Below are positions 4,193 to 55,366 of a stretch of 64,000 nt of DNA, piece after piece. The notes below the pieces were generated by a model. That model was not told the origin of the DNA and did no database searches. It was given only the letters and a program-made list of their open reading frames with translations. This DNA is from Naegleria gruberi. Lineage: Eukaryota. Within the stretch, counting starts at the first letter, position 1. Each line of letters starts with the position of its first letter. The position numbers were made by a program, and so were the translations under genes. The stretch lies in NCBI GenBank assembly GCA_000004985.1, contig GG738898.1. One strand, written 5' to 3'.

Positions 4193-4802
4193 NNNNNNNN
4201 NNNNNNNNNNNNNNNNNNNNNNNNNNNNNNNNNNNNNNNNNNNNNNNNNNNNNNNNNNNNNNNNNNNNNNNNNNNNNNNNNNNNNNNNNNNNNNNNNNNN
4301 NNNNNNNNNNNNNNNNNNNNNNNNNNNNNNNNNNNNNNNNNNNNNNNNNNNNNNNNNNNNNNNNNNNNNNNNNNNNNNNNNNNNNNNNNNNNNNNNNNNN
4401 NNNNNNNNNNNNNNNNNNNNNNNNNNNNNNNNNNNNNNNNNNNNNNNNNNNNNNNNNNNNNNNNNNNNNNNNNNNNNNNNNNNNNNNNNNNNNNNNNNNN
4501 NNNNNNNNNNNNNNNNNNNNNNNNNNNNNNNNNNNNNNNNNNNNNNNNNNNNNNNNNNTCTGTAAACATGACACTTGTGTGAGTATTGACCATCCCTNNN
4601 NNNNNNNNNNNNNNNNNNNNNNNNNNNNNNNNNNNNNNNNNNNNNNNNNNNNNNNNNNNNNNNNNNNNNNNNNNNNNNNNNNNNNNNNNNNNNNNNNNNN
4701 NNNNNNNNNNNNNNNNNNNNNNNNNNNNNNNNNNNNNNNNNNNNNNNNNNNNNNNNNNNNNNNNNNNNNNNNNNNNNNNNNNNNNNNNNNNNNNNNNNNN
4801 NN

Positions 4803-7034: not shown

Positions 7035-7545
7035 NNNNNNNNNNNNNNNNNNNNNNNNNNNNNNNNNNNNNNNNNNNNNNNNNNNNNNNNNNNNNNNNNN
7101 NNNNNNNNNNNNNNNNNNNNNNNNNNNNNNNNNNNNNNNNNNNNNNNNNNNNNNNNNNNNNNNNNNNNNNNNNNNNNNNNNNNNNNNNNNNNNNNNNNNN
7201 NNNNNNNNNNNNNNNNNNNNNNNNNNNNNNNNNNNNNNNNNNNNNNNNNNNNNNNNNNNNNNNNNNNNNNNNNNNNNNNNNNNNNNNNNNNNNNNNNNNN
7301 NNNNNNNNNNNNNNNNNNNNNNNNNNNNNNNNNNNNNNNNNNNNNNNNNNNNNNNNNNNNNNNNNNNNNNNNNNNNNNNNNNNNNNNNNNNNNNNNNNNN
7401 NNNNNNNNNNNNNNNNNNNNNNNNNNNNNNNNNNNNNNNNNNNNNNNNNNNNNNNNNNNNNNNNNNNNNNNNNNNNNNNNNNNNNNNNNNNNNNNNNNNN
7501 NNNNNNNNNNNNNNNNNNNNNNNNNNNNNNNNNNNNNNNNNNNNN

Positions 7546-29200: not shown

Positions 29201-32200
29201 AGAGGGCATTCTTGACAGACTTGAAGATTGTTATTGTTTCTGTTTCTGGCTTTTGAATGAGCTGGTTAAGTTTTACATTTATCAGAGAAAGCTCATTCTG
29301 GAAAAATCTCAACTCCTCCTCAGCAAATTGTGGATATTTACGTTTAAAGTTGGTGAGGGAACTCTCAGCAATTTTGAGTAAATAATTAAGAGATTTGATG
29401 GCACGTATAAGTTTTTCTTTTGTTCCTACAGTCATATCATCAAGCTTAATCAAATCAAAATGCTTATTCAGGTAGAAAAGTATGAAACGATGACTCAGAC
29501 TGTACTGAAGAGACTTCTTGAAATCCTCAATGATAGAGATGGATGTTTCTGGAGAATCAACAAACTGAGCCAACAAAATACAAATCTTTTCAAAGACCTT
29601 CTGTAAAAGTTGACTCTCTTTGAATTCAAATGAATCACTTGTCTTTGGTTTGCCATACTTGTTGGCAATTCCAAGGAATGATGTCATTATCTCACGGAAA
29701 CATATAGTCGTATCGACTGTCTTGAAGTCAATATTGTTAATAATTGATTGAATGTTAGTTTCATCCATAATATCCCACTTTAAAAAGTCTCTCAGATTAG
29801 GATTGATCGCAATTGAAGTAGAGACAACATTAACAGCAAGACAGAGCTTGGCATTCTTTTGACACTTTTGTTTGATTGGTTCATTTTGGTCAAATTCATG
29901 AATATTCGTAAAGCCCTTTGTGAAATCATAGCATGGAAGAGGATCAATTTGAGTTTCATTTCCAAGTGTTAGAGTTCTGGTTCCATCATCAACATGGAAG
30001 TAAGCGAAAAAGTCTGGTGAAATTTCATATGCATTCTTCTTGGTATTTACAACATAAAATTCGAATACAATGATGGCAGATTGAAGTTGATGAGAATTTA
30101 CATTGACTAACAGAATTTCACTCCATGATGGGTTTTTCATTCTCACAATAGCACTATTAAAGAGTAAATTAAATTGTTTGATTATTCCTACTTACGATCT
30201 GTAAACTCTCTGCTTTCTATTGATATCACATTGAATAGTCATACCATCTTTGCCCTTTATGTACATCTTAGCTTCGACAAAGAGAGTCTTGACATTCTTG
30301 TTCAGAACATTCTTAACATTGATATAGATATCATTTCTAATATCGTCCGATATGATAGAACTGCTGAATCTTGTCATTGGAACGAGAGGAAGTTGAGAAA
30401 GTTGAGGATATTGCTTGTATGCTTTGTGATAATCTCCTGTGACCATACTGAGTGAAACATCAATTCCCATAATATCCTCTCTCTCAAGATTTTGATCATC
30501 ATTCATTACTTGATCGAGGAAGGAATCCAAATTGTCATTGCTCTTGAAGTTGAAAAAGGTAACCTCATGTTTAAGAGTGACACCACCAGCAAGTTCAGAA
30601 ACCACAGACTTGGTAAGTTTTGGTGAAACACCAACCGCCATAGGTATTCTGCAATCCAAAAAGGTCTTTCCATTGACTGGTGTGTCCAATTTAACTCTCT
30701 CCACTCTGAAGGCACGTACAAGAATGAGCATTTGTTCCCTCTCTATGAAAGCTCTTGAAACATCCTTGAAGAGTGCATAGAGATTTTGTCGTTGTCTAAG
30801 AGTTGCATCTTCCTCATCATGGTTGCCTGAGGAATTAATAGAAACATGTCNNNNNNNNNNNNNNNNNNNNNNNNNNNNNNNNNNNNNNNNNNNNNNNNNN
30901 AACTTGTCGCTATCTTCAAAACCTCTTCAGGGCCAGTAACACTCACTCTAGAATGATGCATGCTCGATGTGAAAATAACCAAATCTTCAGAAAGGAATGA
31001 TTTGGTAGAAATATCAAACAAACTAAATCTCCACTCCACTTTCAAATAGTAGGAACAGCCTCCAATTTCTATGGCCAATTGAGAGTTTCCTTCAGGTATT
31101 CTACTATATGATCTTCTCTTAGTCTTTAAAATGCTAAGGGCCAAATTACTCTCCTCCTTGTCAATAGTTTCCCAGTACATTTTGTACAAGTCGAAGAGAG
31201 GAGTATTGAGAGGTGACAATTTTTCGCCATTCTTCTTAATAACAACATCTTCACTAAAGAGAGATGCCCCCTCCTCTCTCAAGCTTACTTGAGATTTGAG
31301 AATTTCCTTCATTCTGGATTTGTAATTTTCCGAATCTTCTCTCCTCTGATAGGAATAATAATCAATGAGATAATTGATCATTCTAGCTTCAATTTCGAAT
31401 ACTCTCATGAATCGATCTCTGTTATCTTCCTGAGTTACCAAGGATTCAAAGTGACTCAAATTCCACTCATACACAGTTTCAATCATGGACTTGCAGAAAG
31501 GAACAGCCAAAAATGGTGAGAACCAATTATCCTCCAAGAAGGGAACAATTTCTCGTTGATAGTGTTGTGACATGTTTTGCAAGATTTCAACACTAGCTCC
31601 CAAATAGTTCGATTGTGCATAAATTTGTTCTGGAAAGACATTTCCAAGAGCTATCAATGCATTCGAAATGATAATATTTGCATTCTTTGGAGCTATGGCA
31701 AAAGCTGCATTGGAAGCAATGCTTTGGCTTCTTTTTCTGTCATGATTGCTACCTTTTGGAGAGAGTAATTTATCATTGTCATTACCACCACTGGAAAAGA
31801 TGTTATCTGCAAGGGAAGAAGTTCTCTGATTGGAAAATTCTTCTCTGCTAGCACTTGCTGAGAAAACATTTGACAAGTTCATACCTGACAAATTCAAACT
31901 AGCTCTCTTATTCTTTGAGGAATCATTGATAATACTTTGTCTCTTATCCACTGTTGGTGTGAGTGGCTTTCTTTCTGACTTTTCTGAAGGAGTTGGTGAT
32001 TCATAGCTCTTATCTTTTGAAATGTAATTTTCCAATTTTTGTTTGGTAGCACTAAAACTATTCATTAAACCTCTACGAAATGATTTGGCTCGATGTTGTT
32101 GATGTTGATTAGCAGGTGAAGTAAATGTTGGACTGACGTGTCCAGTTCCATTCATGTGTAAATTACTATCCGAAATGCTAAATGCACTATTAGAAAGAAA

Positions 32201-34185: not shown

Positions 34186-34272
34186 CCGATGATAGCTCAG
34201 CTGGTAGAGCATGGGACTGTAGCAAGAAAAACTGTCATCCTGTGGTCGGCGGTTCGATTCCGTCTCATCGGA
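34186..34272 (+). tRNA. tRNA-Tyr (anticodon GTA) with 14-nt intron (34223-34236)
   Basis: The cloverleaf is CCGATGA / GCTC-AGCTGGTAGA-GAGC / anticodon arm with CTGTAG / TTCGATTCC T-loop / TCATCGG acceptor. An intron follows position 37, as is usual for eukaryotic tRNA-Tyr. A TTTTT run follows at 34275-34279. Confidence 0.9.
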
Positions 34273-34279: not shown

Positions 34280-34807
34280 GTTGTTTTCTGTAATGAAAGA
34301 AGCTTTTAAACCAATTTCTGTGTACGGTTGCTTTTTCTAGAAACATGCTGACCTGGAGTCGTTATCAATTCAAGATATGAATATTACAAGGCATGGTTCA
34401 ATGTTTTTTATCAATGAAACATTCTATTTGAACTTAAACTTCTAATAGCAACACATACAAATGATTACAATAGTATCCAATAGTCTTCCACGATTATTCC
34501 TTCTCTCAATATTTTATAGACCTGACTTCCAAATTATCATATATAGCTGGAGATAAGGAGTTTAAAAATGAGCGATTCATTACAAGGAAGTCTAATTCGA
34601 ATTTATCCCTACGAAGAGTGAACAGTACTACTTCCTTTTCCATTTCATCATCTCATTTAATTATTTCCCCCAAGCAACCTTCCACTGTAATCAGAGCAAG
34701 ATCCCGGCTCCGTGAAAAGGTCGTCTCTGTGTGAATGCTATTAAACTATTGCCTTCTTGTGTTGTGGTCTGCAAATTTCAATCAAGAAAAAAACTTGTGA
34801 GATTAGT

Positions 34808-37723
34808 ATGAGAAAAGGTAACAAAATGACCAGCCGCTATCATCAGCATCATTGGTCCATAATGATAATGATACTGTTGATTATTTCTTTTTCAATGATT
34901 GTTAACATTCATGCTGCATGGGATTTTAGTAGATTTTCCACTCACATGGAACAAATTCAACAATTGCACAATACCTTCTTCGCCAATATCAAGGGAGGTG
35001 CTTCCACTGCAATCTTATTCAGAAATGAAACTGTTGGCGAGGTGTTTGCTGGCATTGCTCAAGGAAATCAAAAGCCAACCAGAGATACCAAGTATAGAAT
35101 TGCTTCAGTAACCAAGACATTTGTCTCTGCTGCCATGATGGCCTTGAGAGATGAAGGACTCATTGATTTGGATCAATCAGTTTGTGATTTTGTTCCTGAA
35201 TTTTGTACCTTTCCAAATCCTGATGGATTATCTTCCAATTTCACATTCAGACAACTTTCATCCTATTTGAGTGGATTGCCAAGAGAAGCTCCATGTGTTC
35301 TCACTGCATGTGATTATTCCAATGGTCAAATAATGCAAAGAATTAAGGAGAATGGATTGTTCCTTGTTAGAGATGGTGATCATTATCCAATTTATTCCAA
35401 TCTTGGATATTCCTTCTTGGGACATGCATTGGAGAGTGCTGCCAAGATTAGTTTCGAACAAGTTATTCAGAGTAGAATTTTAGACAAGTTGGGCATGAAG
35501 AATTCTGGCTTTGTCAATAAGGACAATTTGAACAATCTCATTTTGGCTGAAGGTTATCATGAAAGTGAAAGAATTTACACCAACAACAAGACCATCTCTT
35601 GGTCTCAACCTGCTGCTGGAATGTATTCTAGCATTGCTGATTTGACATTGTACGTCAAGAATTTGATGAATGCATTTGCAAATTATGGAAACAAGATGGA
35701 AACATCCATCATGAGTAGACAAACATTGAGAGAGTTTTTGAATGCACAACATGTTCTTCCTCATGGCTCTGCTGCTGTTGGATTGAGTTGGGAAATGGTT
35801 CATTATCCATTCTTGGGAGGTTGGGCCATTATGAAGAGCGGTTTGATTGGTGGTTACAATGCTCAAGTTGTCATGATTCCTCATTGTGAGATGGCTGTCA
35901 TTACATTGCTTTCAAGAGATGATGGTGCACAATCTTTGGCTTTACAATCTGCTGCAACTATTGCTTCTGCAATGAAGGATTACTTGACTGAATTGAGAGA
36001 GAAGGAAATTGCTGGTAATTTTGGCTCTTTAGTCTCACAATACAAACAATCTGGAAATATTGTTAGTTTGGAACTTGGTAATGTCACCAATTCCAACCAA
36101 AAGTTACTCAATATTAGAAACCCAATTAGTTCACTTTCTCAATCTTTCAACTTGCTTCCAAGTAAGGAAAATGAATTTATTATTCAACCATACGATATTC
36201 CAACAAGAGTTCAATATGAAAAGGGATTAGGTGGAAGTAGGGTTATGACAAGAAGTGATCTTGCCAATATCACTTCACCTGATTTTGATTTATTTGCCAA
36301 CACCCTGTCTACTTCCAACAAGAGAAACTTGGAAAGACAAGCTATCACCTCTGTTTGTAATCACATTCCAAAGGATGTTTCACTCTCATTGCCAATCACT
36401 CAAAGTGATGCTGCTACTGCTTTGAAAAATTTGGGAGATTCAGTTTCTGCATTTGCTTCTCAAACTGGATCAAAAGTTGCTATCCAAGTTAACTATAAGG
36501 GTCAACAGGTTATTATGTTTACATTTGGATCTAGTACTGATTCTACTTCCTTCAATATTGGAACACTTACTCAACTCTTTACTTCCACTGCTATTCTTAT
36601 TGCCAAAGAGAAGGGACTTATCAAATCACTCGATGATCCTATTGTTAAATATCTTCCTCAAATTGTTTATCAAGAAAACTTGCCATTTGAGAATAACATG
36701 ACCATACGTCAATTGATGAATCATGCTTCAGGACTTCCAATTATTGCACCTTGTGATGATACTGACACCTGCTCATTGAACTGGAATCAATATGTTGAAA
36801 AAACAATGGCTGAACAACACATCATTCAACCAAGCTCAACTCTTAGAACATTCTCTACTATTGGATTTTCAATTTTAGGAAGATTGATTGCTTCTTTGAA
36901 AGGAGTAGTTTCATTCAATCAATTCGTTACTGACAATATTTTGACTCCTCTCAAAATGACTGATTCAGGATTCAAGTCTGCTTCATTCTTGGCCTCAAAT
37001 TCTGAAATGTATTCATCCATTAGAGATGTTTCCAAGTTTTTGAATTGTATTTCTGGAATTCATAGGGAATGCTCAATTATTAAGAAGGAATCATCCAGAT
37101 TACTCCACTTGAGAAATTTACTCTCCAACGACAAGGCAATGAGTATGTCACTTGGTTCATTTGAGCATGAATTCTCTAATGGCATTTGGTTTGCTTCCAA
37201 GTATGGATCTATTAAGGGTTACAGTTCCTATGTTGCTATGAATGACGATTTGGATCTCTCTGTTGTTGTATTGTCATCTTCAGATAATAATGTGGGAAAG
37301 TATCTTGTCAATAACCAAAGTGCCATTCCAAACTTGTTCAAAGCATTCACAACAGCACTTCAACAACAACCATCTTTCTTAAAAGCCAACACATCTCTTC
37401 CTAGTCAGGAATTGCTTAAGGATATGAAGGGTATTTACAAGGTATTCGATCAATTCCTTCTCTTTACTCAATATCTTCAAATTGATTACAATGCTCAATT
37501 GGGTTTGATCACTTTTGCATTTGTTGAAAGTGCTACTCCAGCACAATCTTCTGCATCTCCAAACTTTGTTTTGGAAATGATATCACCACAAGATAATCTC
37601 ACTTACAAGGTTAAAACATTGAGCACATTGTCTTGTATGGGAAATGTNNNNNNNNNNNNNNNNNNNNNNNNNNNNNNNNNNNNNNNNNNNNNNNNNNCAG
37701 GCATCCAATGCATTATTGAATAG
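34808..37723 (+). CDS. Secreted serine beta-lactamase/esterase-fold protein (LACTB/PBP4-like) with two tandem beta-lactamase-like domains
   Basis: A signal peptide (IMIMILLIISFSMIVNIHAA) is followed by domain 1 with SVTK (SxxK) and YSNLG (YxN) motifs. Domain 2 (..FTFGSSTDSTSFNIGTLTQLF..) has the SxxK serine replaced (TLTQ). The ORF crosses a 50-N gap at 37648-37697, so the C-terminus is uncertain. The start could be ATG 34808 or 34826. Confidence 0.7.
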   Translation: MRKGNKMTSRYHQHHWSIMIMILLIISFSMIVNIHAAWDFSRFSTHMEQIQQLHNTFFANIKGGASTAILFRNETVGEVFAGIAQGNQKPTRDTKYRIASVTKTFVSAAMMALRDEGLIDLDQSVCDFVPEFCTFPNPDGLSSNFTFRQLSSYLSGLPREAPCVLTACDYSNGQIMQRIKENGLFLVRDGDHYPIYSNLGYSFLGHALESAAKISFEQVIQSRILDKLGMKNSGFVNKDNLNNLILAEGYHESERIYTNNKTISWSQPAAGMYSSIADLTLYVKNLMNAFANYGNKMETSIMSRQTLREFLNAQHVLPHGSAAVGLSWEMVHYPFLGGWAIMKSGLIGGYNAQVVMIPHCEMAVITLLSRDDGAQSLALQSAATIASAMKDYLTELREKEIAGNFGSLVSQYKQSGNIVSLELGNVTNSNQKLLNIRNPISSLSQSFNLLPSKENEFIIQPYDIPTRVQYEKGLGGSRVMTRSDLANITSPDFDLFANTLSTSNKRNLERQAITSVCNHIPKDVSLSLPITQSDAATALKNLGDSVSAFASQTGSKVAIQVNYKGQQVIMFTFGSSTDSTSFNIGTLTQLFTSTAILIAKEKGLIKSLDDPIVKYLPQIVYQENLPFENNMTIRQLMNHASGLPIIAPCDDTDTCSLNWNQYVEKTMAEQHIIQPSSTLRTFSTIGFSILGRLIASLKGVVSFNQFVTDNILTPLKMTDSGFKSASFLASNSEMYSSIRDVSKFLNCISGIHRECSIIKKESSRLLHLRNLLSNDKAMSMSLGSFEHEFSNGIWFASKYGSIKGYSSYVAMNDDLDLSVVVLSSSDNNVGKYLVNNQSAIPNLFKAFTTALQQQPSFLKANTSLPSQELLKDMKGIYKVFDQFLLFTQYLQIDYNAQLGLITFAFVESATPAQSSASPNFVLEMISPQDNLTYKVKTLSTLSCMGNXXXXXXXXXXXXXXXXXXGIQCIIE

Positions 37724-39168: not shown

Positions 39169-39259
39169 GGTGAGTTGGTCGAGTGGTCTAAGACGACACG
39201 TTAAGGTATGTTTAATACCGTGTTCCGCAAGGGCGTGGGTTCAAATCCCACACTCATCA
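39169..39259 (+). tRNA. tRNA-Leu (anticodon AAG) with ~11-nt intron (39207-39217)
   Basis: It has a type II cloverleaf: acceptor GGTGAGT/ACTCATC, D-loop AGTGGTCTAA, anticodon loop TTAAGG, long variable arm TCCGCAAGGGCG and T-arm GTGGGTTCAAATCCCAC. It lies in the 258-bp spacer between two minus-strand genes. Confidence 0.85.
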
Positions 39260-47627: not shown

Positions 47628-48331
47628 AGCCATGTCATGTTCTTCAGTGGATCATAATCCACCACCTGTAGCGACAAGGCATTCTTCCAGTGGATCTTTA
47701 ATAAAGACACAACAGCTGTTGTAGTTTAGTCAACCAATTATCTAGCACATCTTTTGTTTGCATAACTTCCGGACCGTTGCGTTACGCAATTTGGTTTTTT
47801 TTACAAGAATAAATTTCGAAAGCATTTCAAAAATTTTTAAAAAAATATTTTATCCAAATAATCTAAGCCAACACTGTGGTCGTCCTATTTATCAAGGAAC
47901 AAACACTACGAACCACACACAACATCACCATCAACTCTAACTCTACGAACAGTTTATTTCTAAATTTTAGGTTTTCTCCAGCTGAAAGTTTAAAAGCGAA
48001 AACAATTGTCTAGAGTTTATTAAACATAACGGAAAAAGTTTTAATATTGTTCAGGTAAGCTATTGATCATCACTATGATTATATATTTATTAATATTAAT
48101 TCTATTAATTATATAATGTTTTTTAACCTTCCGTGATGATCACCATAAAAATTAAAATTTTAAAAATCGAATTGGTGTTGTGATGAAAATTAATAATACA
48201 AAATTTTATAATAATATTATTTGGTTGAACCATCATGTATTCAACAATAATTATCACCCGACCATCATCATCCTTTGACTTTGCTCAACCACCTCTCTTA
48301 ACAATGTTAAACATTACTATTATTTAGGAAA

Positions 48332-49963
48332 ATGTCAGAAGTCAGCACAGAAACAAACGATACCAAGAAGGAGGAAACTCCAGTTACTGAAGAAGCTCCT
48401 AAAAGCCCAACCAAAGTGGCTGATCCAACTAGTGCAGAATCAACAACATCAACAACAGATCTAGGTAAAAAAGAAGAAATAATCTCAGACTTGGAAGCAA
48501 CAGCAATGACTGATGAGTTTGAATACTTGATTAATGGAGCCACCAATCCAGCAGGTTCTTCTAATGGTAGAGTTTCATTCTTGTCTTCAGAAGAAGAAGA
48601 GGAAGAAGCTGCAATGCAAGCACCTATTGTCTATCAATCAATGCAACCATCTAGTTCCACAATGGATGAAGAAGACCTCTATCTTGTCAAGACCACCCTC
48701 AAGTCAGACTATGATGAGGAATCTTTGAAATTCGAACATGAATACTTCCCTAAGGATATTATTCACAACTTTGCAATTACCTTGTGGAGAATGCCAATCA
48801 AGACTATCAAACATATTGCTAGTAAGAATAATGTTACCATTTCCGATCCAAAATTAAAGAAGGGAAAGAGACTCACAGAAGACCACAAGAAGGAATTCTT
48901 GATTTTTGAAATTGGAAAGAAGGTTGTTAGTGTTGGTGTCAAACATTTCCTCACTGAATTGGATAGAGAAGATATGAGATTTGCTCTCAAGGATTTAATA
49001 AGCAACGAGACTGCTATGGATATTGTTGAAAATGCAAAGCAACAAAAGGACATTGATGAAGAACATTTATTGAGTGCTAAAAACATCCATCTCTTTAAGA
49101 AATCTGATTTGAGATTTAACTTTAAATTGATTTTCGAAAAGATGGGTGCTGAAGAATTGTTAGATGCTCTCACTGATGCCACACTCATTCTCTTCTTGCA
49201 AGCTTTGGAAATTAATGAAGTTGACACTACTCACTCTAACTTGGTTGATGCCATCTTGGAAGAAGTCTTCTTGTATGGTGCAAAGGAAGTTTTGGCCAAG
49301 TGTAAAAAGTCAATTCTCAGAGAAGCTGCTGAAGCTGCTCAATATGAACAAAAGAAACAAGTCTTTGATGCATCACCAACTAAGGAAATGCTTTCTGAAG
49401 TTATTCTCGTTGATGAATTCCCTCATGTTGCTGAGGATTTAATGTCAAGACTCAAGAAGAAGAAGCCACACTTGTTCGATGATTCTAGCAATATTAAACC
49501 AAAGAAGAGATCATACACTGAAGCTGCTGCTAGTGTTGTTGCCTCTTCCTTGACTGAAGATGATGAATTTGATGATCATTCTGATATTGATGGAGTCAAT
49601 TCTCCAAACTCTAAGAACCACAAGAAACGTGGAAGAAAACGCGTCATTAATACTGAAGGAGAAAGACCACAAATTGATCGTGGCATTACTTATAATGATC
49701 TCAAGGACAAGTATTTGGTACAAGAATTAATCTCCTTTGCTCAATCTAAGGGAATCAAATACGTGGGTGTAAAGAAGACAGACCTCTGTAACAGTATCAT
49801 TAAGTATTTGAATGGTGAATTGGTTCCTTCCTTGAAGAAGAGGGGAAGAGGTCGTCCACCAAAGAAGAGAAAGGAAAATCCAGAAGATGGTGATGATCAC
49901 GATGATGATGACACTATGGAAGAAGGTCACGAAGTTGCTGATTCTATGGAAGGTGAAGAGTAA
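48332..49963 (+). CDS. Acidic nuclear protein with C-terminal SAP-like domain and AT-hook (DEK-like architecture)
   Basis: This is a 543-aa ORF with acidic E/D runs. It has a SAP-like ITYNDLKDKYLVQELISFAQSKGIKYVGVKKTDLCNSIIKYL segment, then an AT-hook KKRGRGRPPKKRK. A possible 5'-UTR intron lies upstream (GTAAGC at ~48056 ... TTTAG at ~48329). Confidence 0.6.
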   Translation: MSEVSTETNDTKKEETPVTEEAPKSPTKVADPTSAESTTSTTDLGKKEEIISDLEATAMTDEFEYLINGATNPAGSSNGRVSFLSSEEEEEEAAMQAPIVYQSMQPSSSTMDEEDLYLVKTTLKSDYDEESLKFEHEYFPKDIIHNFAITLWRMPIKTIKHIASKNNVTISDPKLKKGKRLTEDHKKEFLIFEIGKKVVSVGVKHFLTELDREDMRFALKDLISNETAMDIVENAKQQKDIDEEHLLSAKNIHLFKKSDLRFNFKLIFEKMGAEELLDALTDATLILFLQALEINEVDTTHSNLVDAILEEVFLYGAKEVLAKCKKSILREAAEAAQYEQKKQVFDASPTKEMLSEVILVDEFPHVAEDLMSRLKKKKPHLFDDSSNIKPKKRSYTEAAASVVASSLTEDDEFDDHSDIDGVNSPNSKNHKKRGRKRVINTEGERPQIDRGITYNDLKDKYLVQELISFAQSKGIKYVGVKKTDLCNSIIKYLNGELVPSLKKRGRGRPPKKRKENPEDGDDHDDDDTMEEGHEVADSMEGEE

Positions 49964-50092
49964 AATATTTTGTATTGTAAATAGTAATAAAACCAATTGA
50001 CTTATGATTCTTAACAAATCATTTCCTCTCAGGAGACAGACAAAGTATGAGAACATTCTCAAGTCCTTCCTCCTTACCATCCTCGGGTAAGG

Positions 50093-51700
50093 CTATGTCT
50101 TGTCAAATAGCTCAACTAATGGTGAAAAATCATCCTGAACATTTAGGTCAAACCAAACCATATATCCCAATCTTAAAACCTTAACACTATCACAATTCAG
50201 CAAATGATGTGAAATCCACTCTACAATTTCAATCATTTTCTGTACAGTCATATTCTCTTCCTTATAATCCTTATCTTCTCTTTCTATTTTAAATATCAAT
50301 TGTTTCAATTGTTGCAATTTCTCAAGTTCCTCAAAAAAGATTCCACTCTCTTCCTTCGTGACTCGGAAATCATTAATTCTTAATATTCTCAAATTTGTCA
50401 ATTTACCTAAATGCTGCCATTTCTCTTTTCTATATTTCAAGTCATATTGTTCCTGACCAATGGAGTCTCTTGATACTTCTAATTCTTCCAAGTTGGGAAT
50501 TAGAGTAAAATTTAGAAATTTCCAACCAAATGAAAGAGCTAGGGATTTAAGGACAGGAAATCCATTTTTAATTAGTGATTCATTCCATTTCTGATACGAT
50601 CTAACTCTTAATTTCTGTATTGATTTGGATTTGGCAAGTTCAGCAAACGATGTAAATTGCAAATAACAGTCTAGGGTTAGTATTTGTAATTTTGAAACTT
50701 TTGAAATTATTGAACAAATTTCTTGTTCAACATTCTCGAGATAATTACCATTAATGTCTGATATTTCCAATACCCTTAGGTTTTTCAATCTTGTTAACAG
50801 GTAAACACTCTCAAGGTGGAGCCCATTGTTTATACTAAACTCTTCTAAATTTGGAAAACAGGGAATAAAATCATAGGTTAATGTGTTTTTTCTGGATGAT
50901 ATTGAAGTAATTATTTTCAAAGTTTTACAAGTATTGGCTTTAAACTTTTCTTGTGAATTATATCCAACATAATTTCCTAGTTCAATATTTTCCGTATTTG
51001 GAAATACCTTCAACAATAAAGGCAACAATTCCATTCCATCTTTCTTCAAATTTATAGATTTAATATGTTTAAATGCTGATTGGTTTTCTTTTGATTTTAA
51101 CATTATTTCAGTTCTTTTTTTAAGTTCTTCCATATATGTATGTTCTTTTGTAAACATTCTTTCATTAATTCTTGTTGCTTGTTTAATTATTTGAGCCTCC
51201 CAAAATGATAAATTGGGTGAATTTAATCTTTTTGCAATTCCAAACAAAATCTTGACTTGTTCCAAACTATATTTATGTTTACAATCAAGAACAATGCCAT
51301 GTTTAAATGTGAACCGAACTCTACCATCCAAATAATATCTTCCAAACCAATCCTTTGCAAATCGGGTCCAATTCATGAATGAATCATTCCAAAATTCCCT
51401 CTTTCCAACATTGGGTTCAATCTCAACTGTTCCAACAAAATCAAAGATCATATCAATGCAATCATAGGCAATCCAAGCAAAACTTCGTTTCGGTGGTCTT
51501 TTAGTTGGTTGCTTATTATTGCTTAATTGATTCTTTGCATTCCGATGAAGATTATTGTTATAATTTGAGCATGATGATTTCAAAGTTCGATTATCCAATA
51601 CTGCAAGAGTATTTGTATTGGTTGTGTGAGTAGTGGATCTTCGGGTTGGTTTGATCATTTTTTTAATGGATATTTGGGATTTACTTTTGTTACAGCTCAA
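50093..51700 (-). CDS. Leucine-rich-repeat protein (F-box-like N-terminal region), hypothetical
   Basis: This is a 535-aa ORF. It contains SFAWIAYDCIDMIFDFV and then repeated L..L..L.L units (NLRVLEISDINGN, KLQILTLDCY, NLEELEVSRDSIG...). Confidence 0.55.
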   Translation of the reverse strand: MSCNKSKSQISIKKMIKPTRRSTTHTTNTNTLAVLDNRTLKSSCSNYNNNLHRNAKNQLSNNKQPTKRPPKRSFAWIAYDCIDMIFDFVGTVEIEPNVGKREFWNDSFMNWTRFAKDWFGRYYLDGRVRFTFKHGIVLDCKHKYSLEQVKILFGIAKRLNSPNLSFWEAQIIKQATRINERMFTKEHTYMEELKKRTEIMLKSKENQSAFKHIKSINLKKDGMELLPLLLKVFPNTENIELGNYVGYNSQEKFKANTCKTLKIITSISSRKNTLTYDFIPCFPNLEEFSINNGLHLESVYLLTRLKNLRVLEISDINGNYLENVEQEICSIISKVSKLQILTLDCYLQFTSFAELAKSKSIQKLRVRSYQKWNESLIKNGFPVLKSLALSFGWKFLNFTLIPNLEELEVSRDSIGQEQYDLKYRKEKWQHLGKLTNLRILRINDFRVTKEESGIFFEELEKLQQLKQLIFKIEREDKDYKEENMTVQKMIEIVEWISHHLLNCDSVKVLRLGYMVWFDLNVQDDFSPLVELFDKT

Positions 51701-51846
51701 TTACTCCTATTCCTTAAATTCCGTAACAATAAAAAACCAAATTGGCCAAGTACCTGGTACTCCAGCCTTTTTACTTTGCATATTATTTGAAAATTATTAA
51801 GGAACGAGATCTATGTACATTAAAAGTTATTATTTTTTGGGATTTG

Positions 51847-51954
51847 ATGGCTACGGCCATATCACGATGAATGCACCTCATCCCGTCCGATTTGAGAAGT
51901 TAAGCATCGTCGAGCCACATCAGTACTGAGGTTGGAGACAACTTGGGAACCTGT
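51847..51954 (+). pseudogene. 5S rRNA copy, 3'-truncated (lacks the 3' strand of helix I)
   Basis: Positions 51847-51954 are identical to the corresponding 108 nt of the intact copy at 52316-52435 (ATGGCTACGGCCATATCACG...GTTGGAGACAACTTGGGAACCTGT). It then diverges into AAATTCATTTT instead of GGTGCTGTAGTC. Confidence 0.6.
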
Positions 51955-52310
51955 AAATTCATTTTACAAATTGTTAGATGAATTGTGGGGTGGATTAGCA
52001 TTTGAATTTGTGAAGAATTCAAATAGGATAAAGACTATTAACAAACAAACATTATTTTTGATCAATTTGAAGCATTAACAAATATAATTAGATTACATAA
52101 ATCTTTTCTCATTGTTTCCACTAATTAATTCTAATCCAAATTTGTTTGCCTTATTAAATCCAATAACTTGAAGGAAAATCTTGGAAGACAGAGAGTACTG
52201 GAGTAAGATTGTGCTTAGACTTGAAATTCTAAAAATATTTTGAAAACAACAAACTCGTGTCCCTGAATCATGGTATTTTAATTGGCATTTCCTATTCTCT
52301 CCATAAAGAT

Positions 52311-52315
52311 AAAAA
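52311..52315 (-). terminator. Pol III T5 terminator of the intact 5S gene
   Basis: AAAAA on the plus strand lies immediately 3' (minus sense) of the 5S 3' end. Confidence 0.5.
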
Positions 52316-52435
52316 GACTACAGCACCACAGGTTCCCAAGTTGTCTCCAACCTCAGTACTGATGTGGCTCGACGATGCTTAACTTCTCAAATCGGACGGG
52401 ATGAGGTGCATTCATCGTGATATGGCCGTAGCCAT
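52316..52435 (-). rRNA. 5S rRNA (120 nt, intact)
   Basis: It has the canonical 5S motifs (ACGGCCATA, CATCCCGTCCGAT, AAGTTAAGC, GTACT, GGGAAC). Helix I pairs the 5' GGCUACGGC with the 3' GCUGUAGUC. A TTTTT run follows on the minus strand (plus 52311-52315). Confidence 0.85.
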
Positions 52436-52733
52436 TCACTAACAAAAAATGTTGAATATTAATGAAGAAAACTCTTGTCTGCAATTATGAAACATAAATT
52501 GACCTCCTAATAATCCAATAGTCACAATCCAGTTCGTTATCTTTAAAGCAGCAAACAATTTCCATTCAAATTTCATCTTGCTCATTCATTTCCATTTATC
52601 AACAAGCAACTTGGCATCTCTGATAAAGACACATCAGGTCCAAACTAATCCACTCCTCGACCCGTCAATCTACAAAATCAGATAAACACATCTACGAAAT
52701 AAGAACCATCAAATATCCAAACATAAAAAAAAA

Positions 52734-55366
52734 ATGAACAAGACATTTGGCATGTTATCATGTCTGTTACTCTGTCTCATTGTATGCCTCGTCAGTGAAG
52801 AGACACACGCATTGACAGCAACAGAATTATTGCAAGTTAGAGCAACTCTCCTTTCAAATGTCACTTCAATTCCTTATTCATATGTTGGTTATTTGTTTAG
52901 TCATGGCAGCAATTCTGTTCCAATTATTGTTGGTTCTGGAGGTAATGCAGTAGTAGTTGCAGCTACTAGCTCCAATTCCTTGTCCACAGCTGGTCGAATT
53001 TGTGCATTTGGACATAACGGTTATGCATACACATCTGACATGACATCTGGCACAGCTCAATTATTGAAAAATTGTGCTAAATGGACTACCAAAAACAAAG
53101 CCAATGTCAGTTACATGCTACACGGAGTCAGTCAAAGTGGTGGCTCCACTTTTTATAACTCAATTTCAGGATTTTCATTGAACACATCAAAGAATGCATT
53201 CGACGAATTGGTTCGTCCATTAGAAAGCGTTGATTTACTAATTTTGAATTTAAATTCACTCTCAGGTGAGGCAACCTCCACTCAAATCCAAATGCTCTCC
53301 GACTTTTTGAATAGAGGTGGTGGAATTATTTGTGTAACTACTGCTTGGGCTTATTCCATTTCTGGAAATAGATTTCCTGGAAATGTGTTCTTTTCCAGAT
53401 TGGGAGTTTCATTCTATACAGCTTATTTTGAAGGTAGCCCATTTGTGGCATCTACTAAGGATTTGAGTGAAGTGAATGCTTATTTCAAATTGGAACAAAT
53501 TCAAAATACCTTTTCTTTATATGGAAATGTTTCTACAGATGATGTGAATACAGTTGGAAATATGCTATCCAATGTGTATCCAACATTGCCACAGCCAATT
53601 ACCTTAAATTCCATTGAAACGAATCAAAAAGCCAAAACTGTCTATGATTCCATTTGTGGAAGTACAACAATTTCCTTCCCAGTTTCGTCTTCTTTCCAGA
53701 AATTCTGTGTAGTCATGGTGGACACACTAAACAAGGCAAACATTTTACCAATCTCAAATAATCCACAAGTTTTGGCAGGTGAAAACTTCCCNNNNNNNNN
53801 NNNNNNNNNNNNNNNNNNNNNNNNNNNNNNNNNNNNNNNNNNNNNNNNNNNNNNNNNNNNNNNNTATATCGTATAGTGGAGGTACCATTTACTTTGATGT
53901 GTCCAAAATTCCGTTATCCTTCACTGCAACCATCACAGGACAAGTGGTAAAAANCTCCCTTTTTTAGAAATGACCTTCACACAGATTCTGATTGGAAAAA
54001 TACCATTAGAAATTATCCAGGACCTTGGGTAGAAGTTGAATCCGATTATTTCGTATTCAATGTTGAGTCGTCCTATGCCAGAAACTTGACAGAATTGACC
54101 AGTGTCACAAATTACTGGAAAAAGGTTTTGGAGCTTTATTATGAACTCTCCCAAAGACCAATTAGAGATTATAAGGAAAGAATGCAAATTGATATCGATA
54201 TTTCAATTGGATATATGCATTCTGGATACCCAATTATGGCATTTCAGGACCAAAATGAAGGAACTATTAAGGCAGTCAACCCTGCCAACATGGCTCTTGC
54301 TTCAAAAACTCCTGGACGTTGGGGACATTACCATGAATTGGGACACAATTTCCAAGTTTCTGATTGGACCTACTCTCAAGCAGTTGAAGTAACTTGTAAT
54401 ATTTTCTCTTTATATTTGGAAGAGAATTTCCCAGATTCGGCCAATACTTATGGAAAGTCGTTTAATCCACCGAGAGGTCTTGAGACCACTTTTAAGGGAA
54501 ATACTCAGGATTATAAGGGGGATTGGACAAGTGCTGGTTTATTGTTTTATTTGGATTTGATTCAAGCTTTCGGTTGGGTTTCTATTCGAAAGGCATTTGC
54601 TGAATATTATACAGCAGCTTCTGGAACTTTACCAACCAGCGAGGATGAAAAGAGAGATCAATGGGTTGTAAGATACAGTAAGATTGTTGGTAGAAATCTT
54701 GGGCCTTTCTGTGATGCTTGGAGTTTCCCAATTTCACAATCAGCCAAAAGTCAAGTTTCTAATTTAACTTCATGGATGCCAAATAATTTCATTGTTGGAT
54801 GTTCAGTAGCTCGTTTCTCTGATTCACCTTGTGCTTCATTAACCATTCAAGATAATTCCTATGCCAAGTCAACCACCTATGAAGTGAAAATTGTAACTTG
54901 GACACCAGTGAGAAGTATTTATGGTGAACGTTTCATTTTCACTTTCGGTGGTGATTCTCTTCCTCAATTACAAACTGGAACAACAGCTCTCACCTTATTG
55001 GATGGAACAACAAGTTTGAACTCAACTGCTGTTGTGACTAATAATAATGGAACGAGTATTACACTTTCGACCAATGTTGTCGAGTTTGTCAAATCTGGAC
55101 AACTATTGAAATTCTCCTTCCAAGCAAAGAATAGTGTCAAGATTGGAAGCTTTACCACTTCAATTAAGATATTGGATTCAAAGAATGTATTGGTAAATGT
55201 TGTGGAGAGACCATTAGAGTTTACCAATTCAATTGTCATTCCAACTTCATCTTCAACAGTGGTTGGAAAGAAGAGTACAGTTACTGGCAATTCTACCAAG
55301 AACGGGATGAATGTAGTGTTAATTGCATTCTTGATTGGTTGGGTATTATTTGTTTATTCCTTCTAG
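52734..55366 (+). CDS. Secreted/anchored peptidase M60-like (enhancin-like) zinc metallopeptidase with HEXXH motif
   Basis: A signal peptide (MNKTFGMLSCLLLCLIVCLVS) is followed by an N-terminal accessory region. The catalytic region contains WGHYHELGHNFQ (HEXXH). A hydrophobic C-terminus (GMNVVLIAFLIGWVLFVYSF) is compatible with a TM or GPI signal. The gene is split into two ORFs by N-gap 53792-53864 and an ambiguous base at 53954. It is probably one continuous gene. Confidence 0.7.

What the first reader, a model, noticed from the sequence alone, without database searches (positions are those of the whole stretch)
51847..52435. Inverted pair of 5S rRNA copies: one intact, one 3'-truncated but otherwise identical
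The minus-strand copy (52316-52435) is a complete 120-nt 5S with helix I pairing and a T5 terminator. The plus-strand copy 361 bp away is 100% identical over 108 nt but loses the last 12 nt, the 3' strand of helix I, and so cannot fold into a functional 5S. Perfect identity implies a very recent duplication or conversion. The truncated copy could be a pseudogene or the head of a 5S-derived SINE-like element. The 5S genes here are dispersed among protein-coding genes rather than in an rDNA array.
Basis: seen in the sequence. Interest (0 to 1): 0.5.

Follow-up and report, generated by a model that had tools for sequence, protein, structure and literature searches.

The report
Naegleria 5S gene beside disrupted copy
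This is an ordinary 5S ribosomal RNA gene of the amoeba Naegleria gruberi lying tail-to-tail with a broken sister copy (a pseudogene), in a genome already known to carry about 279 scattered 5S copies, some of them partial.

Summary
Rfam finds an intact 119-nt 5S rRNA gene at 52433..52315 (-) and a second copy at 51849 (+). The second copy is 100% identical for 5S positions 1-106, plus 2 upstream nt, and then diverges, losing the 3' strand of helix I. The window is Naegleria gruberi NEG-M scaffold_54. Both copies already appear in a published table of 279 putative N. gruberi 5S genes, about 20 of which are short hits.

The "very recent duplication" and "SINE head" readings are not supported. 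The plus copy keeps the family-typical upstream motif in register. After a 34-nt hairpin-forming segment (51955-51988), its downstream sequence resumes weak but location-specific homology (about 70%) with the intact copy's own 3' end and 3' flank, until the two arms meet near 52158.

The pair is therefore best read as an old DNA-level inverted duplication. One copy was interrupted at position 106/107. The 106-nt body stayed identical, presumably through gene conversion, while the 13-nt tail and the flanks decayed. The plus copy may still be transcribed to a T4 run, but it cannot make a functional 5S rRNA.

Genome-wide recurrence of the junction could not be tested. Interest is low.

The parts
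52315..52433 (-). Intact 119-nt 5S rRNA gene. The terminator is T5 at 52311-52315, counting the last U of the gene.
   Evidence: Rfam RF00001 scores 105.4 bits over model positions 1-120 with all pairs standard. The canonical fold is -41.5 kcal/mol. The gene is 100% identical to the 5S on the independent N. gruberi-like contig L006.
51849..51954 (+). 5S positions 1-106 of the disrupted copy, 100% identical to the intact gene. It contains the box A-like AGTTAAGC (positions 50-57) and the box C-like GGTTGGAGAC (positions 82-91).
   Evidence: Searches show the identity. One search gives the motif positions, using the consensus quoted in PMC3369914.
51955..51988 (+). 34-nt segment that interrupts the 5S at position 106/107. 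It forms a hairpin, AATTCAT (51956-51962) pairing with ATGAATT (51978-51984). It contains a T4 run at 51962-51965, a likely Pol III stop. TGT occurs on both sides (51952-51954 and 51984-51986), so the true insert may be about 29-32 nt with a 3-bp duplication.
   Evidence: The sequence is. The hairpin appears in the folds (DNA -4.3 kcal/mol, z -2.0). The segment is unique in the window and in all fetched loci. T4 terminators follow the tRNA at 39169-39259 and the 5S genes of L001 and L008.
51989..52003 (+). Degenerate remnant of the 5S 3' end and terminator: GGTGGATTAG-CATTT against GGTGCTGTAGTCTTTTT in the intact copy. Within the 13-nt 5S tail there are 8 matches, 4 mismatches and 1 deletion.
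   Evidence: The local alignment starts exactly at the first lost 5S position. The contrast of 0/106 differences in the body against 5/13 in the tail gives Fisher p = 7e-6.
52004..52166 (+). Diverged 3'-flank arm of the plus copy.
   Evidence: It has 116/165 aligned positions identical to the minus copy's 3' flank. The tile next to the plus copy ranks #1 of about 2450 window tiles for a 100-nt query under four scoring schemes.
52150..52314 (-). 3'-flank arm of the intact copy. The two arms meet at about 52158.
   Evidence: With the 5S tail removed, the flank-only score between the two window copies is 50, against 18-38 for unrelated 5S loci.
51804..51848 (+). Upstream promoter-like region of the plus copy: CATTAA at 51818-51823 (-31..-26), ATTTTTTG at 51832-51839 (-17..-10), and AT at -2/-1.
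   Evidence: In-register identity with the partner is 25/40 and with unrelated loci 16-19/40, against about 13-14/40 when shifted. See also repeat finder pair I1.
52434..52478 (-). Upstream promoter-like region of the intact copy: CATTAA at 52459-52464 and ATTTTTTG at 52443-52450, both read on the minus strand.
   Evidence: In-register identity with L008 is 20/40 and with L001 22/40.
50093..51700 (-). Neighbouring gene for a leucine-rich-repeat protein, transcribed away from the plus 5S copy.
   Evidence: The ORF is. Pfam LRR_14 matches at 2.3e-08, below its curated cutoff.
52734..55366 (+). Neighbouring gene for an M60-like peptidase (N. gruberi predicted protein P0006, 808 aa), interrupted by the assembly gap at 53792-53864. 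It is transcribed away from the intact 5S copy.
   Evidence: (Peptidase_M60, 3.9e-44).

Best explanation
The region 51804-52478 is an old inverted (tail-to-tail) duplication, made at the DNA level, of one complete 5S rRNA gene unit of Naegleria gruberi. Each arm holds the upstream promoter-like region, the 119-nt gene and about 160 nt of 3' flank.

The minus-strand copy is a normal 5S gene, transcribed by RNA polymerase III.

The plus-strand copy was interrupted between 5S positions 106 and 107 by a hairpin-forming segment of about 32-34 nt. The 106 nt before the interruption have stayed identical to the family sequence. This is inferred to result from gene conversion, either from the partner 360 bp away or from other members of the roughly 279-copy family, with conversion tracts stopping at the heterology. 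The stranded 13-nt 3' end and both flanks have drifted to about 60-70% identity.

The plus copy keeps the upstream motif and the internal control region, and a T4 run lies 8-11 nt past the break. It may therefore still be transcribed into an RNA of about 117 nt. That RNA lacks the 3' strand of helix I, so it cannot serve as 5S rRNA. The plus copy is a pseudogene.

Shown here: the identity, the loss of helix I, the retained upstream and internal motifs, and the location-specific flank homology. Inferred: the insertion event, gene conversion as the homogenising force, and transcription.
For: - Two Rfam 5S hits: the plus copy scores 69.6 bits with helix I mismatched, the minus copy 105.4 bits.
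- 106/106 identity in the body plus the family-wide AT upstream.
- No fold of the plus copy, with or without its flank, restores helix I.
- A local alignment of the plus copy's downstream sequence with the intact copy's tail and 3' flank starts exactly at the first missing 5S position, after a 34-nt gap. It runs for about 180 nt at 116/165 identity until the arms meet.
- In a scan of about 2450 window tiles on both strands, the tile immediately downstream of the plus copy ranks #1 for a 100-nt query under all four scoring schemes, and #1-3 for 190 nt.
- The flank-only score is 50, against 18-38 for unrelated Naegleria 5S loci.
- Once the 34 nt are removed, both arms measure 275 nt from 5S +1 to the centre near 52158 (from the coordinates).
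- The tail remnant has 5/13 differences against 0/106 in the body, p = 7e-6.
- The upstream motif is shared in register with the partner (25/40) and with independent loci (16-22/40, against about 13-14 when shifted), so the plus copy sits in a genuine 5S-gene context.
- T4 runs act as terminators at other Naegleria Pol III genes.
- The published catalogue lists both copies and about 20 short hits among 279. Many 5S genes there lie in loose local clusters 1-3 kb apart, so local duplication and decay are common in this genome.
Against: - The flank homology is weak. It is invisible under strict scoring.
- It ranks only 10-25 of 2467 tiles for a 60-nt query.
- A gappy alignment to an unrelated region (34351-34600) scores about as high for the 190-nt query.
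- Near the centre, the two arms are aligned partly against the same bases, so that part of the alignment is not independent evidence.
- The hairpin is only modestly stable (z -2), and the 34-nt segment has no known relative.
- Gene conversion and transcription are inferred, not observed.
- No orthologous locus or outgroup could be obtained.
Confidence: 0.6

Rival explanations
1. Plain 3'-truncated pseudogene. A deletion or rearrangement breakpoint removed 5S positions 107-119 and everything beyond. The apparent downstream homology and the 'tail remnant' are chance matches in AT-rich DNA.
For: Strict scoring finds no flank similarity. The rank is only 10-25 of 2467 for a 60-nt query, and an unrelated region scores similarly for 190 nt. 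Truncated 5S pseudogenes are common elsewhere; Rooney and Ward 2005 is cited for this in PMC5555474.
Against: The best alignment starts exactly at the lost 5S position and lies at the one pre-specified location and orientation. It ranks #1 of about 2450 tiles under four scoring schemes for 100 nt. The flank-only score of 50 exceeds all unrelated 5S locus pairs, which score 18-38.
Confidence: 0.2
2. The plus copy is the head of a 5S-derived SINE or a chimeric retrocopy. Alternatively, the 34-nt segment is the footprint of a mobile element that targets position 106/107 of 5S genes, so the same junction recurs across the genome.
For: The copy begins at the 5S 5' end and keeps the internal control region. 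Feng et al.'s table holds several other hits of 98-106 nt. One of them, on the same scaffold (scaffold_54:144229-144326), has the same similarity value of 0.669. The 34-nt segment is palindromic and flanked by TGT on both sides.
Against: The upstream flank carries the gene-type motif in register, which a retrocopy would not bring along. The downstream sequence resembles the partner's own flank. There is no poly(A), LINE tail or simple-repeat tail. No second copy of the junction or insert exists in the 64-kb window or in the other fetched loci. The metagenome hit and all four peptide-derived loci have intact 3' ends.
Confidence: 0.08
3. The truncated copy is kept by selection as a working element. 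It could be a Pol III-bound site acting as a boundary between the two divergent protein genes, or the gene for a 5S-like regulatory RNA. Selection would then explain its perfect 106-nt identity.
For: There are 0/106 differences while the flanks have decayed. The upstream motif, internal control region and a T4 stop are all retained. Each 5S copy lies 150-300 bp from the start of a divergently oriented protein gene.
Against: Gene conversion in a family of about 279 copies explains the identity without any function. There are no expression or binding data. The N. fowleri locus of the M60 homologue has no 5S gene, though orthology is uncertain at 34% identity.
Confidence: 0.08
4. Assembly artefact: a false palindrome or a chimeric join inside a collapsed 5S repeat.
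For: This is a draft assembly with N runs, the nearest at 53792-53864. 5S is a repeat of about 279 copies, and short-read contigs of the same organism break at 5S copies.
Against: Artefactual fold-backs give perfect inverted repeats. Here only the 5S body is identical, and the arms are 60-70% alike with indels. A chimeric join within a repeat would give a full-length 5S, not a copy with a unique 34-nt insert. The whole structure spans less than 700 bp. From memory, this JGI assembly was built from Sanger reads of about that length; I did not verify this.
Confidence: 0.03

Closest known systems
Truncated 5S rRNA pseudogenes of dispersed 5S families evolving by birth and death (filamentous fungi; Rooney and Ward 2005, as cited in PMC5555474)
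   Same: 5S genes are dispersed among protein-coding genes. Copies lacking an intact coding sequence cannot form the 5S fold and are classed as pseudogenes. Local duplication is followed by decay.
   Different: The organism is a heterolobosean amoeba. The copy is 100% identical over 106 nt rather than mutated. The defect looks like an internal interruption with a decayed 3' remnant, set inside an inverted pair.
The published N. gruberi 5S catalogue (Feng et al. 2012, PLoS One, PMC3369914, Table S1)
   Same: Both copies are listed: scaffold_54:276314-276430 (117 nt) and 275852-275950 (99 nt). Their 462-nt spacing matches the window pair. The same table has about 20 other short hits.
   Different: The table calls all entries 'putative 5S rRNA genes'. 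It gives no strand, no pseudogene call and no description of the inverted pair or the interruption.
Giardia lamblia WB 5S gene copy with a 15-bp insert in the coding region (Feng et al. 2012)
   Same: It is a 5S family member with a short internal insertion. In Giardia, RT-PCR found no transcript of it.
   Different: The species, the insert position and the insert size differ. Expression of the Naegleria copy is untested.
5S-derived SINEs (for example zebrafish SINE3) and 5S-L1 chimeric retrocopies of mammals (recalled from memory)
   Same: Both have a 5' part equal to 5S from +1, including the internal promoter, with the 3' end of 5S replaced by other sequence.
   Different: There is no repeated body, no LINE-like or poly(A) tail and no multi-copy junction in any sequence I could reach. 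The gene-type upstream motif is present, and the downstream sequence is homologous to the neighbouring gene's flank.
Inverted-repeat gene pairs homogenised by arm-to-arm gene conversion (for example the human Y-chromosome palindromes; recalled from memory)
   Same: Inverted duplicates lie close together, and part of the arms stays identical while the rest diverges.
   Different: The scale is tiny, at about 300-bp arms. Identity is confined to the gene body, which is also shared with hundreds of dispersed copies, so the conversion donor need not be the partner.

Membership tests
Eukaryotic 5S rRNA gene (Rfam RF00001) | Covariance-model score above the gathering threshold (38 bits) | tested here: met
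   The minus copy scores 105.4 bits and the plus copy 69.6 bits.
Eukaryotic 5S rRNA gene (Rfam RF00001) | Helix I formed by the 5' and 3' ends, required for the three-way-junction fold (plus copy) | tested here: not met
   In the plus copy, 5 of the 9 helix I pairs and three helix V pairs are non-standard in the Rfam alignment. No fold, with or without up to 44 nt of extra 3' flank, closes helix I. The remnant GGTGGATTAGCA would pair at only 5 of 9 positions (read directly from the sequence). The minus copy meets this feature with 9 bp, two of them G-U.
Eukaryotic 5S rRNA gene (Rfam RF00001) | Internal control region (box A, intermediate element, box C) within the gene | tested here: met
   The box A-like AGTTAAGC lies at 50-57 and the box C-like GGTTGGAGAC at 82-91, both upstream of the break at 106. 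The consensus is the one quoted in PMC3369914. These are sequence matches only. The intermediate-element consensus is too degenerate to be informative. Feng et al. found no TFIIIA in N. gruberi.
Eukaryotic 5S rRNA gene (Rfam RF00001) | Pol III terminator (T run) at the mature 3' end | tested here: inconclusive
   The minus copy has T5 at the 3' end. The plus copy has T4 at 51962-51965, inside the inserted segment and not at a 5S 3' end. T4 does follow other Naegleria Pol III genes. Termination was not measured.
5S rRNA pseudogene | Clear descent from 5S, plus a lesion incompatible with the 5S fold | tested here: met
   106/106 identity, then loss of the helix I 3' strand.
5S rRNA pseudogene | No contribution to ribosomal 5S rRNA (no stable, incorporated transcript) | not testable with these tools
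   No RNA data are available here.
5S-derived SINE | Many dispersed copies sharing the same head-body junction and body | tested here: inconclusive
   The junction and insert occur once in the 64-kb window and not at all in about 60 kb of other loci. The one metagenome hit and all four peptide-derived loci have intact 3' ends. The N. gruberi genome itself could not be searched.
5S-derived SINE | LINE-related, poly(A) or simple-repeat 3' tail, and target-site duplications around the whole element | tested here: not met
   No such tail occurs in 51955-52314. Instead the downstream sequence aligns to the partner gene's 3' flank.
5S-derived SINE | Insertion brings no gene-type upstream promoter, because the copy starts at +1 of the transcript | tested here: not met
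   The upstream flank shares the family motif in register: 25/40 with the partner and 16-19/40 with unrelated loci, against about 13-14 when shifted.
Inverted duplication with homogenised core | Homology of the arms beyond the conserved gene, in inverted orientation, with the arms meeting at a centre | tested here: met
   Upstream identity is 25/40 in register. Downstream identity is 116/165, with rank #1 of about 2450 tiles for 100 nt. The flank-only score is 50 against 18-38 for controls. The support is moderate, not overwhelming.

The most novel reading that the evidence does not exclude
The break at 5S position 106/107 may not be a one-off. Several other hits of 98-106 nt in the published N. 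gruberi table, including one on the same scaffold with the same similarity value, could share this junction. The 34-nt palindrome flanked by TGT would then be the footprint or a miniature copy of a mobile element that specifically targets 5S genes, or the start of a 5S-derived SINE family in a heterolobosean.
Probability: 0.08. Interest if true: 0.5.

Novelty: new member of a known kind. Interest (0 to 1): 0.12.

Why it matters
It matters little beyond annotation. The plus copy should be labelled a 5S pseudogene rather than a gene, so the count of functional 5S genes in N. gruberi is lower than the 279 hits reported.

The pair is a tidy small example of concerted evolution. The gene body is kept identical right up to an interruption, and the stranded 13-nt tail decays like the flanks.

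The locus would become interesting only if the same junction recurs elsewhere in the genome. That would point to a 5S-targeting or 5S-derived mobile element in an understudied eukaryotic lineage.

Tried and rejected
- Alternative helix I from the 3' flank. Folds of 106, 115 and 150 nt never pair the 5' end with the flank. Rejected.
- Orphan 5S 3' end elsewhere. GGTGCTGTAGTC with up to 2 mismatches occurs only in the intact copy, apart from unrelated chance sites.
- Repeated element in the spacer or flanks. BLAST of the spacer and both upstream regions against the window gave only self hits. An Rfam E-value scan of 51400-52900 found nothing else; SCARNA7 at E = 0.63 is noise.
- Public collections, searched with GAGACAACTTGGGAACCTGT. 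The metagenome scan gave one intact Naegleria-type 5S. The bacterial and archaeal genomes gave two chance 20-mers with no 5S. The viral contigs gave none.
- Peptide trick. I searched 5S-encoded pseudo-peptides in three frames to recover spurious ORF calls over Naegleria 5S genes. There were only 4 hits, all with intact 3' ends.
- Independent assembly of the locus. An ENA/Logan assembly (ERR1078381) holds N. gruberi contigs 99.6-99.7% identical to the window, but I could not reach a contig covering the pair. The M60 search returned no such contig. The LRR search returned nothing at all. Ten small intergenic ORFs and the LRR protein are not in the collection. The NCBI N. gruberi genome is not indexed for locus look-ups.
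- Synteny. The N. fowleri locus of the M60 homologue (34% identity) has no 5S. The contig of the metagenome M60 homologue starts inside the gene. Both are uninformative.
- Strict-scoring scan for flank homology. It was negative. Homology is seen only with permissive scoring.
- Sequencing method of the JGI assembly. The Cell 2010 genome paper is not held and the pangenome paper does not state the method, so the Sanger statement rests on memory.

Full report
**Observation**

Rfam's 5S_rRNA model matches twice in the window. One hit is at 52433..52315 on the minus strand (105.4 bits, every pair standard). The other is at 51849..51967 on the plus strand (69.6 bits), where the 3' strand of helix I and three helix V pairs are non-standard.

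The two copies are identical for 5S positions 1-106 (51849-51954) plus the two bases 'AT' just upstream. They then diverge completely: CCTGT|GGTGCTGTAGTCTTTTT against CCTGT|AAATTCATTTTAC. A 36-nt 5S probe gives 2 hits against 0 expected in shuffles.

- The gene is 119 nt and 13 nt are lost.
- The spacer is 360 nt.
- The copies are convergent.
- The intact copy ends in T5.

The intact copy folds into the canonical three-arm structure with a 9-bp helix I (-41.5 kcal/mol). The plus copy never closes helix I, with or without up to 44 nt of extra flank.

**Source and context**

The ORF at 48332-49963 is exactly XP_002672353.1 (NAEGRDRAFT_81259) of Naegleria gruberi, on a 310,422-bp scaffold.

Feng et al. 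2012 (PMC3369914) found 279 putative 5S genes in this assembly, spread over many scaffolds, and reported an internal control region, an upstream TATA box and no detectable TFIIIA. Their Table S1 lists scaffold_54:275852-275950 (99 nt) and scaffold_54:276314-276430 (117 nt). The 462-nt spacing matches this pair and occurs nowhere else in the table, so the window is about scaffold_54:223998-287997. Both copies were thus already catalogued, the broken one as a short hit.

About 20 of the 279 entries are short (80-112 nt). Many full-length entries lie in loose groups 1-3 kb apart. Local duplication and partial copies are therefore common in this genome.

The Naegleria 18S-5.8S-28S genes lie on an extrachromosomal circle (abstract of PMC5805870, seen), so a dispersed chromosomal 5S family is expected.

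The pair lies in the 1-kb gap between two divergently oriented protein genes: a leucine-rich-repeat protein (50093-51700, minus) and an M60-like peptidase (from 52734, plus).

A local alignment of the sequence downstream of the plus copy against the intact copy's 3' end and flank begins exactly at the first 'lost' 5S base, but 34 nt further along. GGTGGATTAG-CATTTG (from 51989) aligns with GGTGCTGTAGTCTTTTT. The alignment continues for about 180 nt at 116/165 identity, until the two arms meet at 52150-52166.

The 34 skipped bases (51955-51988) form a hairpin, AATTCAT...ATGAATT. They are flanked by TGT on both sides and occur nowhere else in the window or in any fetched locus. With those 34 nt removed, both arms measure 275 nt from 5S +1 to the centre near 52158.

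The flank homology is weak, so I tested it in three ways:
- Shuffles and random window segments reach the observed score in 2/500 and 4/474 trials.
- In a scan of about 2450 tiles on both strands, the pre-specified tile next to the plus copy ranks #1 for a 100-nt query under all four permissive scoring schemes. It ranks #1-3 for 190 nt but only 10-25 for 60 nt. Strict scoring does not see it at all.
- With the 5S tail removed, the flank-only score between the two window copies is 50. Unrelated Naegleria 5S loci score 18-38. The only higher pair, L001/L006 at 54, looks like an orthologous locus in two strains.

I take the homology as probable, not proven.

**Upstream region**

The two copies share CATTAA at -31..-26 and ATTTTTTG at -17..-10 in register, with 25/40 identity.

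Independent Naegleria-type 5S loci were recovered from a metagenome (L001) and from an N. gruberi-like ENA assembly (L008). They share 16-22/40 in register with the window copies, against about 13-14/40 when shifted. All have AT at -2/-1. The motif is therefore a family feature, presumably the upstream promoter element, and the plus copy retains it. A retro-inserted 5S copy would not.

**What the plus copy can still do**

The box A-like and box C-like elements lie at positions 50-57 and 82-91, before the break.

A T4 run lies at 51962-51965. T4 runs directly follow the tRNA gene at 39169-39259 and the 5S genes of L001 and L008.

Transcription into an RNA of about 117 nt is therefore plausible but untested. 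That RNA would lack helix I and could not function as 5S rRNA.

**Why the body is identical**

The tail remnant has 5 differences in 13 positions and the flanks are 60-70% identical, whereas the body has 0 differences in 106 (Fisher p = 7e-6).

A recent duplication would have produced identical flanks, so it is excluded. The pattern fits homogenisation of the body by gene conversion, from the inverted partner or from the wider family, with tracts ending at the interruption. Selection on the plus copy is a less economical alternative.

Not all family members are identical. L008 carries a 2-nt insertion and scores 92 bits.

**SINE and retrocopy reading**

Evidence against:
- The gene-type upstream motif is present.
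- The downstream sequence is homologous to the partner's flank.
- There is no poly(A) or LINE-like tail.
- The junction occurs only once in all the sequence I could reach.
- The metagenome hit and the four loci recovered through 5S-encoded pseudo-peptides all have intact 3' ends.

This reading is not excluded, because the N. gruberi genome itself could not be searched. Table S1 holds other hits of 98-106 nt, one on the same scaffold with the same similarity value.

**Assembly artefact**

This is unlikely. The arms differ by substitutions and indels everywhere except the 5S body, whereas a false fold-back would be a perfect repeat. A chimeric join within a repeat would give a full-length gene, not a unique 34-nt insert.

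An independent short-read assembly of nearly identical N. gruberi DNA exists (L002/L003, 99.6-99.7% identity). I could not reach its contig for this locus.

**Comparison and verdict**

The closest known cases are the truncated 5S pseudogenes of dispersed 5S families, well described in filamentous fungi (Rooney and Ward 2005 via PMC5555474), and the Giardia 5S copy with a 15-bp insert that is not transcribed.

This is a further member of that kind, in a genome where the loci were already listed. The added detail is that the copy looks interrupted rather than truncated, and that it sits in an old, degenerate palindrome. Interest is low at 0.12.

The only reading that would raise the interest is a recurrent, position-specific 5S disruption. 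I put its probability at about 0.08.

Noticed in passing
window 34186-34272 (+) and 39169-39259 (+): There are two intron-containing tRNA genes. Read by eye, the first has a GTA anticodon (tRNA-Tyr) with a 17-nt intron and is followed by T5. The second looks like tRNA-Leu(AAG) with a long variable arm and a 16-nt intron, and is followed by T4. ARAGORN, which runs with bacterial settings, found only the second and could not name it.
   Followed up: partly
L008 1-1354 (ENA ERZ929261 contig k127_101776): This N. gruberi-like contig is a dense Pol III cluster. A 5S variant with a 2-nt insertion (CATCCCGTCC becomes CACCCCTCGTCC; 92 bits) lies among three complete tRNA genes and one partial one. So not all family members are identical, and 5S and tRNA genes can be interleaved.
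   Followed up: partly
L007 6297-6411 (ENA ERZ2098899 NODE_1451): A related heterolobosean 5S shows compensatory changes in helix V (CCAC/GTGG becomes CTGC/GCAG) and a G-U to G-C change in helix I. It lies next to genes for a linker histone and a polyprenyl synthase. It would be useful as an outgroup for the 5S structure.
   Followed up: no
L002/L003 against window 48103-50742: Run ERR1078381 (PRJEB11402), which is labelled a metagenome, contains N. gruberi DNA 99.6-99.7% identical to the window. Its contigs tend to end at 5S copies. It could serve as an independent check of this locus.
   Followed up: partly
window 52734-55366, with the gap at 53792-53864: The M60-like peptidase gene is split by an N run in the assembly. 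Outside Naegleria, its best homologues are metagenomic and Verrucomicrobiota M60 peptidases, at about 40% identity over about 30% of the query. This may hint at bacterial ancestry.
   Followed up: no
window 34351-34600 (+): The region downstream of the tRNA-Tyr gene gives a gappy alignment to the 5S 3' flank that scores about as high as the true arm-to-arm alignment for the 190-nt query. This is probably chance in AT-rich DNA. It sets the noise level for the flank-homology claim.
   Followed up: partly
window 50096-51661 (-): The word-indexed protein search returned no hit at all for the LRR protein, not even the N. gruberi protein itself or the C-terminal fragment seen on L002/L003. Low-complexity words probably filled the 8000-candidate limit. 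The exact ATG-started ORF is also absent from the collection, so the annotated gene model probably differs from this ORF.
   Followed up: no
window 4193-4558, 4598-4802, 7035-7545, 30851-30900, 37648-37697, 53792-53864: The assembly has several gaps (N runs), and the window is 35.4% G+C. This is a scaffold-level draft, so local structures near gaps should be treated with care.
   Followed up: no
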